Shown: piece after piece, positions 18,370-25,743 of the stretch
Layout: every line of letters starts with the position of its first letter
Position numbering within the stretch: position 1 is the first letter of the stretch
Origin: Escherichia coli 042
Lineage (GTDB): Bacteria; Pseudomonadota; Gammaproteobacteria; Enterobacterales; Enterobacteriaceae
Strand: one strand, 5' to 3'
Assembly: GCF_000027125.1 (NCBI RefSeq)
Contig: NC_017626.1
DNA: 64,000 nucleotides
The notes under the pieces: model-generated
What the model was told of the DNA's origin: nothing
What the model saw: only the letters and a program-made list of their open reading frames with translations
The model's database searches: none
Position numbers and translations under genes: made by a program

Positions 18370-19080
18370 ATGAACGCTGAGCGTAAATTTCTTTTTGCCT
18401 GTCTTATTTTTGCGCTGGTCATTTACGCTTTCCACGCTTTCGGTTTATTCGAGCTGCTCACCGATTTACCTCACTTACTGACACTCATTCGCCAGAGCGG
18501 ATTGTTCGGTTATAGCCTCTATATTCTGTTATTCATCATTGCCACCCTCTTTCTGTTACCAGGAAGCATACTGGTGATCGCTGGAGGAATAGTTTTTGGC
18601 CCGCTCTTAGGGACACTACTATCATTAATTGCCGCCACGCTGGCCTCCTCGTGCTCATTCCTGCTGGCGCGCTGGCTGGGACGTGATTTACTGCTGAAAT
18701 ACGTTGGCCATAGCCATACCTTTCAGGCCATTGAAAAAGGCATTGCGCGTAACGGTATTGATTTTCTTATTCTGACCCGCTTAATCCCGTTGTTTCCTTA
18801 CAATATTCAAAATTACGCTTACGGATTAACCACAATCACCTTCTGGCCTTATACCCTTATTTCGGCACTCACGACCCTGCCCGGTATTGTTATTTATACC
18901 GTGATGGCAAGCGATCTCGCCAATGAAGGCATTACGCTGCGCTTTATTTTACAACTCTGTCTGGCGGGCCTGGCGCTGTTTATTCTCGTCCAGCTCGCCA
19001 AACTCTACGCCCGACACAAACATGTGGATCTGTCTGCTTCGCGCCGCAGCCCACTTACTCACCCAAAAAATGAAGGATAG
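18370..19080 (+). CDS. ydjX: DedA/TVP38-family inner membrane protein
   Basis: ORF track start 18322 is TTG; trimmed to ATG at 18370 (MNAERKF...); polytopic hydrophobic protein, 236 aa. Confidence 0.85.
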   Translation: MNAERKFLFACLIFALVIYAFHAFGLFELLTDLPHLLTLIRQSGLFGYSLYILLFIIATLFLLPGSILVIAGGIVFGPLLGTLLSLIAATLASSCSFLLARWLGRDLLLKYVGHSHTFQAIEKGIARNGIDFLILTRLIPLFPYNIQNYAYGLTTITFWPYTLISALTTLPGIVIYTVMASDLANEGITLRFILQLCLAGLALFILVQLAKLYARHKHVDLSASRRSPLTHPKNEG

Positions 19081-19084
19081 AACG

Positions 19085-19762
19085 ATGTTGCAACATTATT
19101 CAGCGTCATGGAAAAAAGGACTGGCTGCACTCTGCTTACTGGCTGTTGCTGGGCTTAGCGGCTGCGATCAAAAAGAGAATGCGGCGGCAAAAGTGGAATA
19201 CGACGAACTTTCGAACAGCCAACCGCTGCGTGTCGATGCTAATAACCATACGGTAACCATGCTGGTGCAAATTAATGGTCGTTTCCTCACCGACGACACT
19301 CGTCACGGTATTGTGTTTAAAGATGGCTCCAACGGACATAAATCGCTGTTTATGGGTTATGCGACCCCGAAAGCATTTTATGAAGCCCTGAAAGAGGCAG
19401 GTGGTACGCCAGGCGAAAACATGACGATGGATAATAAAGAAACGACTCATGTCACAGGCAGCAAACTGGATATTTCGGTCAACTGGCAAGGGGCGGCAAA
19501 AGCGTATTCCTTCGATGAAGTGATTGTTGACCGTAATGGCAAGAAACTGGACATGCGCTTTGGCGGTAATTTAACGGCAGCAGAAGAGAAGAAAACGGGT
19601 TGCCTGGTGTGTCTGGATAGCTGCCCGGTCGGCATCGTCAGCAATGCAACATACACTTATGGTGCGGTTGAAAAACGAGGGGAAGTTAAATTCAAAGGCA
19701 ATGCCTCGGTTCTCCCGGCGGATAACACGCTGGCAACGGTTACCTTTAAAATCACCGAATAA
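19085..19762 (+). CDS. ydjY: Putative secreted/lipoprotein YdjY
   Basis: ORF track 18923..19762 trimmed to ATG at 19085 (MLQHYSASWKKGLAALCLLAVAGLSGC, signal peptide with lipobox-like LSGC); 225 aa. Confidence 0.8.
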   Translation: MLQHYSASWKKGLAALCLLAVAGLSGCDQKENAAAKVEYDELSNSQPLRVDANNHTVTMLVQINGRFLTDDTRHGIVFKDGSNGHKSLFMGYATPKAFYEALKEAGGTPGENMTMDNKETTHVTGSKLDISVNWQGAAKAYSFDEVIVDRNGKKLDMRFGGNLTAAEEKKTGCLVCLDSCPVGIVSNATYTYGAVEKRGEVKFKGNASVLPADNTLATVTFKITE

Positions 19763-19776
19763 AGCCAGGATAAAGG

Positions 19777-23716: not shown

Positions 23717-24369
23717 TGCTCTGCGTGAAAAATGTTTCGCTACGTTTACCAGAAAGCCGCTTGCTGACAAACGTTAACTTTACGGTGGATAAAGGTGACA
23801 TTGTCACGTTAATGGGGCCGTCTGGCTGTGGAAAATCCACACTGTTTTCATGGATGATTGGTGCGCTGGCCGGACAGTTTTCTTGTACAGGTGAGCTATG
23901 GCTCAATGAGCAACGGATTGACATGCTATCCACCGCACAGCGTCAGATTGGCATTCTTTTCCAGGATGCACTGTTATTTGACCAGTTCAGCGTCGGGCAA
24001 AATTTACTGCTGGCTCTGCCAGCGGCACTCAAAGGTGTTGCAAGGCGCGATGCGGTAAATGATGCGCTGGAGCGTGCGGGGCTTGGCGGTATGTTCCATC
24101 AGGATCCTGCCACTTTGTCTGGCGGTCAGCGAGCGCGCGTTGCTCTGCTTCGCGCCCTTCTCGCTCAGCCAAAAGCGTTGCTACTGGATGAGCCATTCAG
24201 CCGTCTTGATGTAGCTCTGCGCGATAATTTTCGCCAGTGGGTGTTCAGCGAAGTTCGCGCCCTGGCGATCCCCGTCGTTCAGGTAACGCACGATCTCCAG
24301 GATGTTCCTGCTGATAGTTCTGTTCTGGATATGGCGCAGTGGTCAGAAAATTACAACAAACTGCGATAA
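23716..24369 (+). CDS. ynjD: ABC transporter ATP-binding protein
   Basis: ORF track 23629..24369 trimmed to ATG at 23716; Walker A GPSGCGKST and ABC signature LSGGQRARV present; 217 aa. Confidence 0.85.
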   Translation: MLCVKNVSLRLPESRLLTNVNFTVDKGDIVTLMGPSGCGKSTLFSWMIGALAGQFSCTGELWLNEQRIDMLSTAQRQIGILFQDALLFDQFSVGQNLLLALPAALKGVARRDAVNDALERAGLGGMFHQDPATLSGGQRARVALLRALLAQPKALLLDEPFSRLDVALRDNFRQWVFSEVRALAIPVVQVTHDLQDVPADSSVLDMAQWSENYNKLR

Positions 24370-24435
24370 CGCAAAGTTTTTCCCAATGCGTCAGTTCAGA
24401 ATGGCGCACTCAAAACTACAATGTCGGGATTTTCG

Positions 24436-25743
24436 ATGAAACGTGTTTCTCAAATGACCGTGCTGGCAATGGCTTTAGGGCTGGCTTGCGCTTCTTCGTG
24501 GGCCGCTGAACTGGCGAAGCCTCTTACACTTGACCAGCTTCAACAACAAAATGGCAAAGCGATAGATACTCGCCCCAGCGCGTTTTATAACGGCTGGCCA
24601 CAAACCTTAAATGGCCCTTCTGGTCATGAACCTGCCGCCTTAAACCTCTCTGCTAGCTGGCTCGACAAAATGAGCACCGAACAGCTTAACGCGTGGATCA
24701 AGCAACATAACCTGAAAGCCGATGCTCCGGTCGCATTGTATGGCAATGACAAAGATGTCAACGCGGTAAAAGCGCGCCTGCAAAAAGCAGGTTTTACGCA
24801 TATCTCCATCCTGAGTGACGCGCTAAGCGAACCTTCCCGTCTGCAAAAACTGCCGCACTTTGAGCAGCTGGTTTATCCGCAATGGCTGCACGACCTGCAA
24901 CAAGGTAAAGAGGTTACGGCGAAACCTGCCGGTGACTGGAAAGTCATTGAAGCGGCCTGGGGCGCTCCTAAGCTTTACCTTATCAGCCATATTCCCGGCG
25001 CTGACTACATCGATACCAACGAAGTTGAAAGCGAGCCGCTGTGGAACAAAGTTTCTGACGAACAACTTAAAGCAATGCTGGCGAAGCACGGCATTCGTCA
25101 TGACACCACGGTCATTCTGTACGGGCGTGATGTTTACGCCGCAGCGCGTGTGGCGCAAATTATGCTCTACGCTGGCGTGAAAGATGTCCGCCTGCTGGAT
25201 GGCGGCTGGCAAACCTGGTCCGACGCGGGACTGCCCGTTGAGCGCGGAACGCCACCGAAAGTGAAAGCGGAACCGGATTTCGGCGTGAAGATCCCGGCAC
25301 AACCGCAACTAATGCTTGATATGGAACAGGCGCGTGGACTGCTGCATCGCCAGGATGCATCGCTGGTGAGCATTCGTTCGTGGCCAGAATTTATCGGTAC
25401 GACCAGCGGTTACAGCTATATTAAACCAAAAGGTGAAATAGCCGGAGCACGTTGGGGACACGCTGGTAGCGACTCGACGCATATGGAAGATTTCCATAAC
25501 CCGGATGGCACCATGCGTAGCGCCGATGATATTACCGCTATGTGGGAAGCATGGAATATCAAACCAGATCAGCAAGTTTCATTCTACTGCGGCACCGGCT
25601 GGCGCGCGTCCGAAACCTTTATGTACGCACGAGCAATGGGCTGGAATAACGTCTCCGTTTACGACGGCGGCTGGTACGAATGGAGCAGCGATCCAAAAAA
25701 TCCGGTAGCAACCGGTGAACGCGGCCCGGACAGCAGCAAATAA
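24436..25743 (+). CDS. ynjE: Periplasmic rhodanese-family sulfurtransferase
   Basis: ORF trimmed to ATG at 24436; signal peptide; rhodanese active-site loop CGTGWRAS near C-terminus; 435 aa. Confidence 0.85.
   Translation: MKRVSQMTVLAMALGLACASSWAAELAKPLTLDQLQQQNGKAIDTRPSAFYNGWPQTLNGPSGHEPAALNLSASWLDKMSTEQLNAWIKQHNLKADAPVALYGNDKDVNAVKARLQKAGFTHISILSDALSEPSRLQKLPHFEQLVYPQWLHDLQQGKEVTAKPAGDWKVIEAAWGAPKLYLISHIPGADYIDTNEVESEPLWNKVSDEQLKAMLAKHGIRHDTTVILYGRDVYAAARVAQIMLYAGVKDVRLLDGGWQTWSDAGLPVERGTPPKVKAEPDFGVKIPAQPQLMLDMEQARGLLHRQDASLVSIRSWPEFIGTTSGYSYIKPKGEIAGARWGHAGSDSTHMEDFHNPDGTMRSADDITAMWEAWNIKPDQQVSFYCGTGWRASETFMYARAMGWNNVSVYDGGWYEWSSDPKNPVATGERGPDSSK

What the first reader, a model, noticed from the sequence alone, without database searches (positions are those of the whole stretch)
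18370..25743. Tightly packed eight-gene ydjXYZ-ynjABCDE cluster of unresolved function
Eight same-strand genes have minimal or overlapping junctions (ydjZ/ynjA TGATG, ynjB/ynjC 28 nt overlap, ynjC/ynjD TAATG). They combine two DedA/TVP38 membrane paralogs, a lipoprotein-like protein, an AhpD-like protein, a complete ABC importer and a periplasmic rhodanese with an intact CGTGWRAS loop. The mix suggests uptake and processing of a sulfur-containing substrate, but I do not know of an established substrate for this system.
Basis: partly seen in the sequence, partly recalled or inferred. Interest (0 to 1): 0.4.

Follow-up and report, generated by a model that had tools for sequence, protein, structure and literature searches.

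The report
E. coli ydjXYZ-ynjABCDE(F) anaerobic envelope cluster
This is the well-annotated but functionally unsolved, oxygen-regulated ydjXYZ-ynjABCD/ynjE gene cluster of Escherichia coli; comparison with distant bacteria suggests its core moves a sulfur-like element, most probably selenium, across the inner membrane.

Summary
The window is E. coli chromosome. Eight same-strand genes lie at 18370-25743 with exactly the junctions described, and the cluster is present in 5424 of 5426 complete genomes. It is already catalogued: ydjXYZ-ynjABCD is a published FNR-activated operon, ynjE has its own FNR-dependent promoter, and YnjE has crystal structures. I found no published substrate.

New here:
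- The conserved unit is YdjY plus DedA-type proteins. YdjY is an exported lipoprotein with three invariant cysteines. YdjZ orthologues are 50-60% identical across phyla and carry an invariant membrane cysteine.
- YdjY is rare (124 hits among 100,044 species genomes) and occurs mostly in anaerobes.
- Around this core other lineages repeatedly place YnjBCD-like importers, YnjE-like rhodaneses, YnjF-like CDP-alcohol phosphatidyltransferases, cytoplasmic Fe-S/Cys reductases, SelD/YedF selenium genes, and ArsS/TIGR04282/TIGR04283 genes.
- In E. coli the cluster is co-expressed with yedEF, and selD lies 9 kb downstream.

Best reading (confidence about 0.35): an anaerobic thiol-relay system for a thiophilic chalcogen, probably selenium. 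The YnjBCD substrate remains unknown. Sulfur, arsenic and lipid-headgroup readings are not excluded.

The parts
18247..18260 (+). FNR-type site TTGAGaaaaATCAA upstream of ydjX
   Evidence: One mismatch to TTGAT-N4-ATCAA. Such matches are not rare in the window (8 found, 3.2 expected). However, the position fits the published FNR site at -60.5 of ydjXYZ-ynjABCD (PMC3688515).
18370..19080 (+). ydjX, X-type DedA/TVP38 membrane protein
   Evidence: PF09335 VTT domain, E 1.7e-26. 28% identical to YdjZ. X-type relatives (32-39% identical) occur in 25 of 76 non-enterobacterial loci, and in Desulfobacterota they are fused to a Fer4/CCG domain.
19085..19762 (+). ydjY, exported lipoprotein with three invariant cysteines
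19777..20484 (+). ydjZ, Z-type DedA/TVP38 membrane protein
   Evidence: PF09335, E 2.2e-24. Orthologues 50-60% identical in 53 of 76 non-enterobacterial loci. Cys113 is invariant (56/56) and Cys152 is 91% conserved.
20484..21032 (+). ynjA, AhpD/CMD-family protein with CxCxxC
   Evidence: PF02627. C76/C79 align with the CxxC of PDB 2ijc/2o4d. No hydrophobic segment passes a TM threshold. Found only in the Escherichia/Citrobacter loci.
21042..22208 (+). ynjB, periplasmic substrate-binding protein
   Evidence: PF13416; NF008633 at 562 bits. Orthologues 29-36% identical in 11 non-enterobacterial YdjY loci. Model pLDDT 85.8; Foldseek neighbours are PhnS, AfuA, PotD, FbpA, TbpA at 13-17% identity.
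22181..23716 (+). ynjC, fused 12-TM ABC permease
   Evidence: PF00528. 12 hydrophobic segments. Overlaps ynjB by 28 nt.
23716..24369 (+). ynjD, ABC ATPase
   Evidence: PF00005, E 8e-30. Best equivalogs PhnT2/ThiQ are below their cut-offs.
24395..24422 (+). sigma-70-like promoter hexamers in the ynjD-ynjE gap
   Evidence: TTCAGA-16-TACAAT, a consensus match only. ynjE is reported as directly FNR-activated from its own promoter (PMC3688515). I found no good FNR consensus here.
24436..25743 (+). ynjE, periplasmic three-domain rhodanese
   Evidence: PDB 3ipo/2wlr are this protein. The next relatives are EanB structures at E 1e-88. Has a signal peptide and the active loop CGTGWRAS. YnjE-like proteins occur in 7 non-enterobacterial YdjY loci.
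25752..26372 (-). ynjF, CDP-alcohol phosphatidyltransferase (probable functional member)
   Evidence: PF01066. Best NCBIfam hits are archaetidylinositol-P and PIP synthases, below cut-off. Full-length relatives (25-31% identical) lie inside YdjY clusters of L027, L030, L042, L054 and L065.
34775..35818 (-). selD (context only: selenophosphate synthetase 9 kb downstream)
   Evidence: tblastn with a Facklamia SelD, and the PGAP annotation. It is separated from the cluster by nudG, ynjH, gdhA, a J-domain/Hsp70 pair and topB, so the linkage is suggestive only.

Best explanation
The cluster is an FNR-induced envelope system built around a mobile, strongly conserved core.

Core parts:
- YdjY is an inner-membrane-anchored periplasmic lipoprotein with three invariant cysteines.
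- YdjX and YdjZ are two different DedA/TVP38 membrane proteins. YdjZ carries an invariant intramembrane cysteine.

Proposed mechanism: the core passes a thiophilic chalcogen, most probably selenium and alternatively sulfane sulfur, across the inner membrane by thiol ligand exchange. The logic resembles MerP to MerT to MerA.
1. The periplasmic rhodanese YnjE captures the element as a persulfide or perselenide and hands it to YdjY.
2. YdjY passes it to YdjZ/YdjX.
3. The cytoplasmic CxxC protein YnjA releases or reduces it. In other phyla an Fe-S/CCG disulfide-reductase domain fused to the X-type DedA, or a C_GCAxxG_C_C protein, would do this job.
4. The element is then available to SelD-dependent pathways, i.e. 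the anaerobic selenoprotein formate dehydrogenases and selenouridine.

YnjBCD (binding-protein-dependent importer) and YnjF (CDP-alcohol phosphatidyltransferase) are conserved accessory modules. Their substrate is not identified.

Shown: gene content, conservation, co-occurrence, and regulation (from papers). Inferred: the element, the direction of transport and every transfer step.
For: 1. Core conservation. YdjY relatives occur in only 124 stretches among 100,044 species genomes, yet are 45-60% identical from Escherichia to Firmicutes, Campylobacterota and Desulfobacterota. A DedA gene lies within the window in 68 of 76 non-enterobacterial loci, usually directly adjacent.
2. Two DedA orthogroups are conserved.
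3. Cysteines. YdjY C173/C176/C180 plus R73/H74 are invariant. YdjZ Cys113 is 56/56 and Cys152 is 91%. YnjA has CxCxxC.
4. A cytoplasmic redox partner recurs. Fer4/CCG is fused or adjacent in 27 loci and C_GCAxxG_C_C occurs in 5.
5. Selenium genes. SelD and/or YedF lie within 10 kb in 9 of 76 loci: several Desulfobacterota families with different arrangements, and Facklamia. Some also carry Se_S_carrier and a NifS-like gene. The chance expectation is about 0.5% per locus (my estimate: 20 kb in a 3-5 Mb genome). selD is 9 kb downstream in this window.
6. E. coli transcriptomes place ydjXYZ-ynjABCD, ynjE and yedEF in one anaerobic iModulon. Its authors relate it to Mo/Se usage (PMC7888660).
7. 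FNR directly activates both promoters (PMC3688515).
8. A DedA-family protein of C. jejuni (SelF) is needed for formate dehydrogenase activity at low-nanomolar selenite (PMC11237541).
9. [quoted passage not shown]
Against: - There is no direct experiment on these proteins with selenium.
- The commonest accessory neighbours are ArsS/TIGR04282/TIGR04283 'arsenosugar' genes (19 of 76 loci), not SelD. Some SelD links may exist only because those cassettes encode selenoproteins.
- SelF and the Cupriavidus DedA are described only as dedA homologues. I did not test whether they belong to the YdjX/YdjZ subfamily.
- Most loci (Gemella, Finegoldia, Peptostreptococcus) show no selenium gene within 10 kb.
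- I could not test whether all YdjY-bearing genomes have selD.
- DedA proteins with a proven function are lipid (undecaprenyl-phosphate) flippases.
- The model gives YnjBCD and YnjF no clear role.
- The E. coli selD linkage is interrupted by unrelated genes.
Confidence: 0.35

Rival explanations
1. Sulfur reading. The system takes up and processes an inorganic or organic sulfur compound such as polysulfide, thiosulfate or a thiol/thione. YnjBCD imports it. YnjE carries a persulfide. The sulfur feeds assimilation or molybdenum-cofactor sulfuration under anaerobiosis.
For: - Rhodanese with an intact catalytic loop and a CxxC protein.
- YnjE is listed as a molybdopterin-synthase sulfurtransferase in PMC3688515.
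- Its nearest characterised relative, EanB, makes a C-S bond. YnjE keeps the counterparts of EanB Cys412, Tyr353, Glu345, Tyr411 and Thr414 (residue roles are from my memory of the EanB literature).
- The YeeE/YeeD thiosulfate system is a precedent for cysteine-lined uptake with a TusA-like partner (my knowledge).
Against: - YnjE shows no apparent thiosulfate:GSH activity and poor activity with 3-mercaptopyruvate (PMC10215317).
- It is periplasmic, which fits badly with cytoplasmic MoaD sulfuration.
- Neighbourhood links are to SelD/YedF rather than to cys genes.
- The known regulation is by FNR, and I found no report of sulfur-starvation control.
Confidence: 0.2
2. Lipid-headgroup reading. 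DedA proteins act as lipid scramblases or flippases. YnjF attaches an imported alcohol or polyol-phosphate (brought in by YnjBCD) to CDP-diacylglycerol. The unusual phospholipid is flipped by YdjX/YdjZ and acted on outside by YdjY and YnjE. In other phyla the headgroup is made in situ by ArsS, a nucleoside hydrolase, a kinase and the TIGR04282/TIGR04283 transferases, as for arsenosugar phospholipids or a selenium analogue.
For: - YnjF-like genes (5 loci), MprF-type flippase TM domains (6 loci), fused TIGR04282+TIGR04283 transferases (17 loci), choline-kinase/APH-like genes and IU nucleoside hydrolases (6 loci) all recur beside YdjY-DedA.
- The DedA families with proven function transport undecaprenyl phosphate. 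The weak UptA hits of YdjX/YdjZ and 10.1101/2023.01.04.522824 are consistent with that superfamily.
- The YnjF catalytic motif looks intact by my reading of the sequence.
Against: - E. coli lacks ArsS, the transferases, the kinase and the MprF-like protein.
- The minimal module in many genera is only YdjY plus DedA.
- The invariant cysteines of YdjY and YdjZ are not explained by lipid flipping.
- YdjX/YdjZ score far below the UptA cut-off: 29-33 bits against 250.
Confidence: 0.2
3. Arsenic (or other metalloid/metal) reading. The tri-cysteine YdjY binds As(III), or Sb, Te or Hg. The DedA pair moves it to supply ArsS-type organoarsenical synthesis or for detoxification.
For: - Three invariant cysteines are the classical As(III) ligand set (my knowledge).
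- ArsS (TIGR04167) is present in 9 loci and the 'arsenosugar' transferases in 17.
- Arsenic-resistance genes (ArsA, Acr3-like, LMW phosphatase) lie 8-10 kb upstream in one Finegoldia locus.
Against: - E. coli and most genera lack ArsS near the module.
- No ArsM-type methyltransferase recurs in the clusters.
- As(III) normally enters cells without a dedicated importer (my knowledge).
- E. coli regulation is by FNR, and the co-expressed partner is yedEF.
Confidence: 0.1
4. No common function. The genes are neighbours transcribed together in E. coli but serve unrelated roles.
For: ynjE has its own promoter. YnjA is restricted to Enterobacteriaceae. Many genera carry only YdjY plus DedA.
Against: - YnjB-type importers (11 loci), YnjE-like rhodaneses (7) and YnjF-like enzymes (5) recur next to YdjY-DedA in several unrelated lineages.
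- The genes share an iModulon.
- Translational coupling at three junctions.
Confidence: 0.05

Closest known systems
MerP-MerT-MerA mercury relay (functional analogy only)
   Same: An exported cysteine-bearing binding protein, a small membrane transporter with membrane cysteines and a cytoplasmic thiol/disulfide-type reductase are encoded together. A thiophilic element is passed by ligand exchange.
DedA-family selenium uptake proteins (C. jejuni SelF/Cj1168c; Cupriavidus DedA)
   Same: DedA superfamily membrane proteins linked by mutant phenotypes to selenite acquisition for formate dehydrogenase (PMC11237541).
   Different: They are described as dedA homologues acting alone, with no YdjY-type partner reported. 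Whether they belong to the YdjX/YdjZ (TVP38) subfamily was not tested.
YedE/YedF and YeeE/YeeD (TsuA/TsuB) systems
   Same: A membrane protein with a TusA-like or Cys-bearing partner for selenium or thiosulfate handling. yedEF is co-expressed with this cluster, and YedF genes neighbour YdjY in 8 loci.
   Different: The protein families are unrelated to DedA and YdjY. No YedE/YedF is encoded in the cluster itself.
ThiBPQ / PhnSTUV-type ABC importers
   Same: Same architecture as YnjBCD: a cluster-D binding protein, a fused or paired permease and one ATPase. They give the best sub-threshold NCBIfam hits and are Foldseek neighbours.
   Different: All scores are far below the equivalog cut-offs (ThiQ 129 bits against 245; PhnU2 29 against 593). 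YnjB is only 13-17% identical to any solved binding protein.
EanB, anaerobic ergothioneine sulfurtransferase
   Same: Closest characterised relative of YnjE (E about 1e-88). The three-domain layout, the CGTGW loop and several active-site residues are shared.
   Different: YnjE is exported. It lacks the counterparts of Tyr375 and Cys370. No EanA-type methyltransferase was annotated or detected in the cluster.
ArsS/TIGR04282/TIGR04283 'arsenosugar biosynthesis' cassette
   Same: The commonest accessory neighbour of YdjY-DedA outside Enterobacteriaceae (19 of 76 loci).
   Different: Absent from the E. coli window. Its product in these anaerobes is unknown.
UptA-type DedA undecaprenyl-phosphate flippases
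   Same: VTT/DedA domain.
   Different: A different subfamily: COG0398 rather than COG0586 according to 10.1101/2023.01.04.522824. Scores are 29-33 bits against a cut-off of 250.

Membership tests
DedA/VTT (PF09335) membrane proteins | VTT domain above the Pfam gathering score | tested here: met
   YdjX 93.6 bits and YdjZ 86.7 bits against a cut-off of 33.9.
UptA undecaprenyl-phosphate transporter (NF052604) | Score at or above the equivalog cut-off (250 bits) | tested here: not met
   YdjX 28.6 bits, YdjZ 33.3 bits.
YdjY domain family (PF27149 / NF040466) | YdjY domain above cut-off, with the conserved GC-x2-CLDSCP motif | tested here: met
   144 bits against a cut-off of 50. C173, C176 and C180 are invariant in 16 sequences.
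Bacterial lipoprotein | Signal peptide with a lipobox ending in Cys | tested here: met
   LAVAGLSGC27 read from the translation. Actual lipidation is not testable here.
AhpD/carboxymuconolactone decarboxylase family | CMD domain with a CxxC motif | tested here: met
   PF02627 at 36.4 bits against a cut-off of 23. C76/C79 align with the CxxC of 2ijc. Peroxidase or reductase activity was not tested.
Type I binding-protein-dependent ABC importer | A binding protein, a BPD_transp_1 permease and an ABC_tran ATPase encoded together | tested here: met
   PF13416, PF00528 and PF00005. The permease has 12 hydrophobic segments.
Thiamine transporter ThiBPQ (database label 'putative thiamine transport' recalled from memory) | Equivalog-level match to ThiB, ThiP and ThiQ | tested here: not met
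   YnjD against ThiQ scores 129 bits with a cut-off of 245. YnjB and YnjC have no ThiB or ThiP hit at E<=1e-4.
Rhodanese / thiosulfate sulfurtransferase | Rhodanese domain with a catalytic Cys loop | tested here: met
   PF00581 with 3 stretches. Loop CGTGWRAS. Identical to PDB 3ipo.
Rhodanese / thiosulfate sulfurtransferase | Efficient thiosulfate- or mercaptopyruvate-dependent sulfur transfer | not testable with these tools
   Published assays report no apparent thiosulfate:GSH activity and poor activity with either donor (PMC10215317).
EanB ergothioneine synthase | Full set of hercynine-site residues, cytoplasmic location and an EanA partner | tested here: not met
   The Tyr375 counterpart is Thr and the Cys370 counterpart is Ala. 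YnjE has a signal peptide. No methyltransferase is encoded in the cluster.
CDP-alcohol phosphatidyltransferase | PF01066 domain with the DG-x2-AR...G-x3-D-x3-D motif | tested here: met
   44.3 bits against a cut-off of 22. The motif LDGLDGALAR...GGFLDISLD is read from the sequence. Specific synthase equivalogs are below cut-off.
Selenium-utilisation gene neighbourhood | Recurrent linkage to SelD, YedF or Se_S_carrier, or co-regulation with them | tested here: inconclusive
   9 of 76 loci carry SelD and/or YedF. selD lies 9 kb away in the window. The cluster shares an iModulon with yedEF. Most loci show no such gene, and genome-wide co-occurrence with selD was not testable.
ArsS/TIGR04282/TIGR04283 cassette | Presence of the radical-SAM enzyme and the two transferases | tested here: not met
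   tblastn of these seeds against the window gave no hit.
FNR regulon | FNR site at an activating position and FNR-dependent expression | tested here: inconclusive
   A site with one mismatch lies at 18247-18260. No convincing site was found before ynjE. Dependence on FNR is taken from PMC3688515.

The most novel reading that the evidence does not exclude
YdjY plus the YdjX/YdjZ DedA pair is a previously unrecognised kind of transporter. It depends on a binding lipoprotein and works by cysteine relay. It would be the long-sought specific, high-affinity selenium acquisition route of E. coli and many anaerobes. YnjE would load it in the periplasm and YnjA (or Fe-S/CCG domains elsewhere) would unload it in the cytoplasm. 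In other phyla the same module would feed an ArsS-type pathway that makes a selenium-containing (rather than arsenic-containing) sugar or lipid.
Probability: 0.25. Interest if true: 0.7.

Novelty: already known. Interest (0 to 1): 0.42.

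Why it matters
The locus itself is ordinary textbook annotation, but its function is a real gap. It is a core, FNR-controlled, nine-gene system of the best-studied bacterium and it has no known substrate. If the selenium-relay reading holds, it would identify the specific low-concentration selenium uptake route that has been missing in E. coli. It would also give the TVP38/YdjX-YdjZ branch of the DedA superfamily a non-lipid function. Finally, it would connect a widely distributed 'arsenosugar-like' gene cassette of gut and oral anaerobes to chalcogen metabolism. 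The comparative data reduce the problem to a few cheap experiments: limiting-selenium formate dehydrogenase assays in defined mutants, and metal or chalcogen binding by YdjY.

Tried and rejected
- An Rfam scan of 17000-27500 at E<=0.1 found only one sub-threshold sRNA hit inside ynjC, so there is no riboswitch or leader.
- The composition profile is unremarkable, so there is no sign of recent acquisition.
- The PDB sequence search for YdjY gave only insignificant ferredoxin-motif hits, and for YnjB nothing.
- Foldseek of the YnjB model could not discriminate between ligand classes.
- The AFDB50 library was unavailable.
- A search for an FNR consensus upstream of ynjE found nothing better than 3 mismatches.
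- The literature search on ArsS/TIGR0428x was swamped by unrelated 'ARS' terms.
- Lin et al. 2015 (selenium comparative genomics) does not mention DedA, TVP38, AhpD or YdjY; its one 'rhodanese' match is a reference-list title about ybbB.
- The apparent DedA-YdjY-SelD 'operon' in L022 was downgraded. The first ~145 residues of the SelD ORF look non-coding, so the true spacer is about 0.45 kb.
- The count of '153 DedA copies' from single-linkage clustering was inflated by fusion proteins. It was replaced by seed-based counts.
- Moco sulfuration as the main role was judged unlikely because YnjE is exported.

Full report
**Observation.** The window is Escherichia coli chromosome. The 7.4-kb stretch is 100% identical to strain CB209. 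It is present in 5424 of 5426 complete genomes, and at least 80% is covered in 5379. PGAP annotation transferred to window coordinates gives:
- ydjX 18370-19080
- ydjY 19085-19762
- ydjZ 19777-20484
- ynjA 20484-21032
- ynjB 21042-22208
- ynjC 22181-23716
- ynjD 23716-24369
- ynjE 24436-25743

All eight are on the + strand. ynjF (25752-26372) is convergent, 8 nt beyond ynjE. The ynjD/ynjE gap is 66 nt. The domain calls also hold:
- two VTT/DedA proteins;
- a lipoprotein with no older Pfam family, now covered by the YdjY domain PF27149/NF040466;
- a CMD/AhpD-like protein with C74xC76xxC79;
- a binding protein, a fused 12-TM permease and an ATPase;
- a three-domain rhodanese with FYCGTGWRAS, identical to PDB 3ipo/2wlr.

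**What is already published.**
- ydjXYZ-ynjABCD is listed as a directly FNR-activated operon with a site at -60.5 (PMC3688515). A one-mismatch FNR site, TTGAGaaaaATCAA, lies at 18247-18260.
- The same study gives ynjE its own FNR site at -41.5. The eight genes are therefore at least two transcription units. I found only sigma-70-like hexamers in the gap and no convincing FNR consensus there.
- BaeR over-expression weakly induces ynjABCD (PMC2731931).
- YnjE has poor thiosulfate and mercaptopyruvate activity, and its physiological substrate is called unclear (PMC10215317).
- An independent-component analysis of E. coli transcriptomes found an uncharacterised anaerobic iModulon made of ydjXYZ-ynjABCD, ynjE, yedEF and yjiLM. 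Its authors proposed a relation to molybdenum and selenium usage (PMC7888660).
- No paper in the searchable library assigns a substrate.

**The conserved core.**
- YdjY homologues are rare but very well conserved. 124 stretches encode a relative among one genome for each of 100,044 species. They are 45-60% identical between Escherichia, Peptostreptococcus, Finegoldia, Gemella, Catonella, Facklamia, Campylobacter concisus, Sulfurospirillum, Clostridium and many Desulfobacterota.
- In a 16-sequence alignment R73, H74, C173, C176 and C180 (motif GC-x2-CLDSCP), together with a YTYGAVEKR block, are invariant or nearly so. Every member has a signal peptide or lipobox.
- The E. coli lipobox Cys27 is followed by Asp. 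By the +2 rule (my knowledge) this predicts retention in the inner membrane.
- I clustered all ORFs in 85 loci (±10 kb) and then searched with defined seeds. A DedA gene accompanies YdjY in 68 of 76 non-enterobacterial, non-duplicate loci, usually directly adjacent.
- There are two DedA orthogroups. A Z-type is 50-60% identical to E. coli YdjZ in 53 loci. It often carries an extra N-terminal 4-TM module, which in other loci is a separate small gene. An X-type is 32-39% identical to YdjX in 25 loci.
- In Desulfobacterota the X-type is fused to a Fer4/CCG (HdrD-like) domain in proteins of about 600 residues.
- More than 80 columns of the Z-type alignment are at least 90% conserved. These include an invariant Cys113 (56/56) and Cys152 (91%) inside the membrane motifs. 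The X-type has no conserved cysteine.

**Accessory genes.** Outside Enterobacteriaceae the following recur next to the core:

| Accessory gene | Loci (of 76) |
|---|---|
| YnjB-type binding protein with permeases and ATPase (29-36% identical to YnjB) | 11 |
| YnjE-like exported rhodanese with the CGTGWR loop | 7 |
| YnjF-like CDP-alcohol phosphatidyltransferase | 5 |
| MprF-type flippase TM domain | 6 |
| Fer4/CCG protein or domain | 27 |
| C_GCAxxG_C_C (seleno)protein | 5 |
| Fused TIGR04282+TIGR04283 transferase (often next to a choline-kinase/APH-like gene) | 17 |
| ArsS radical-SAM enzyme | 9 |
| IU nucleoside hydrolase | 6 |
| SelD | 6 |
| YedF | 8 |

- The YnjF-like proteins align with E. 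coli YnjF over their full length at 25-31% identity. They share its best sub-threshold family hits. I therefore count ynjF as a probable member of the system.
- SelD and/or YedF are present in 9 loci. Some of these also carry a Se_S_carrier protein and a NifS-like desulfurase.
- YnjA is confined to the Escherichia/Citrobacter loci. The Fe-S/CCG and C_GCAxxG proteins may be its functional counterparts elsewhere (inference).
- The E. coli window has no ArsS or transferase genes. It does carry selD at about 34775-35818, 9 kb beyond ynjE.

**Interpretation.** The anatomy has three layers: an exported tri-cysteine protein anchored at the inner membrane, two membrane proteins (one with an invariant membrane cysteine), and a cytoplasmic thiol or Fe-S disulfide-reductase-type partner. 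This is what one expects of a ligand-exchange relay for a thiophilic element, by analogy with MerP-MerT-MerA (analogy only).

Several independent lines point to selenium as the element:
- neighbourhood with SelD/YedF in several Desulfobacterota families and in Facklamia, where chance would give roughly 0.5% per locus (my estimate);
- selD close by in E. coli;
- co-expression with yedEF;
- FNR control in parallel with the anaerobic selenoprotein formate dehydrogenases;
- the C. jejuni DedA-family protein SelF, which is needed for formate dehydrogenase activity at low-nanomolar selenite (PMC11237541);
- the known ability of rhodaneses to carry selenium (my knowledge).

I put this reading at about 0.35. 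Every transfer step and the direction of transport are inferred.

**Weaknesses and rivals.**
- The most frequent accessory neighbours are the ArsS/TIGR04282/TIGR04283 genes (19 of 76 loci). Some SelD links could merely serve selenoproteins encoded in those cassettes.
- Most loci show no selenium gene.
- I could not test whether YdjY genomes are a subset of selD genomes, nor whether SelF belongs to the YdjX/YdjZ subfamily.
- A sulfur reading remains plausible (0.2). It could involve polysulfide or thiosulfate, or a C-S bond-forming role, because YnjE is about 1e-88 from EanB and keeps most of its active-site residues.
- A lipid-headgroup reading (0.2) is suggested by YnjF, MprF-like flippases, the transferases and the lipid-flippase precedent for DedA proteins. 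It does not explain the invariant cysteines or the minimal YdjY+DedA modules.
- An arsenic reading (0.1) rests on the tri-cysteine site and on ArsS.
- Unrelated functions (0.05) are unlikely given the recurrent co-occurrence.

**The ABC importer.**
- YnjBCD has the architecture of ThiBPQ/PhnSTUV-type importers, but all equivalog scores are far below cut-off.
- The YnjB model (pLDDT 85.8) resembles cluster-D binding proteins at only 13-17% identity. Their ligands are aminoethylphosphonate, sugar phosphates, polyamines, ferric iron, thiamin and pyridoxal phosphate.
- Its substrate stays open. Its repeated linkage to YdjY-DedA in five or more unrelated lineages shows that it belongs to the same process.

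**Verdict.** The added value here is threefold: a sharper definition of the system (core YdjX-YdjY-YdjZ; ynjF included; ynjE transcribed separately), its patchy distribution among anaerobes, and a specific, cheaply testable selenium-relay hypothesis.

Noticed in passing
window 34775-35818 (-): selD (selenophosphate synthetase) lies only about 9 kb downstream of ynjE, in a topB-selD-ydjA block. Unrelated genes (nudG, ynjH, gdhA, a J-domain/Hsp70 pair, topB) lie between.
   Followed up: partly
window ~28739-32379 (-): A J-domain protein gene and an Hsp70-family gene, overlapping by 4 nt, sit between gdhA and topB in this strain. I recall a different small gene (ynjI) here in K-12, so this may be a strain-variable insertion.
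   Followed up: no
window 25743-25752 and 26832-26866: ynjE and ynjF stop codons are convergent and 8 nt apart. nudG and ynjH overlap convergently by about 35 nt. Both pairs are listed as candidate excludons in PMC12288877.
   Followed up: partly
L063:10761-11948, L002:10649-11029, L003:10666-11130, L077:10579-11022: A 4-TM module of about 125-150 residues with no Pfam family is either fused to the N-terminus of Z-type DedA proteins (about 395 aa in Gemella, Finegoldia and Peptostreptococcus) or encoded as a separate small gene after ydjY (Sulfurospirillum, Desulfobacterota). E. coli has no counterpart.
   Followed up: partly
L073:3693-4160, L076:4973-5440 (Facklamia loci): A PrdB/GrdB-like ORF stops at about residue 155, where PrdB carries selenocysteine. 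It is probably a selenoprotein gene read through UGA. It sits between the TIGR04282/3 transferases and ArsS, next to DsbD-TM and ResA-like thioredoxin genes.
   Followed up: no
L004:1-2713 (Finegoldia MAG): ArsA, an Acr3-like SBF permease and a low-molecular-weight phosphatase (arsenic-resistance-type genes) lie 7-10 kb upstream of ydjY, with an Opp-type ABC transporter in between.
   Followed up: no
window 18322, 21039, 24421: Longer in-frame alternative starts exist for ydjX (TTG 18322), ynjB (ATG 21039) and ynjE (ATG 24421) relative to the PGAP starts. They do not change the conclusions.
   Followed up: no
window 1728-59297: Eight one-mismatch matches to the FNR consensus occur in the window, against 3.2 expected. 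They include sites at 26943 (inside ynjH) and 28877 (after gdhA). Only the ydjX site was examined.
   Followed up: no
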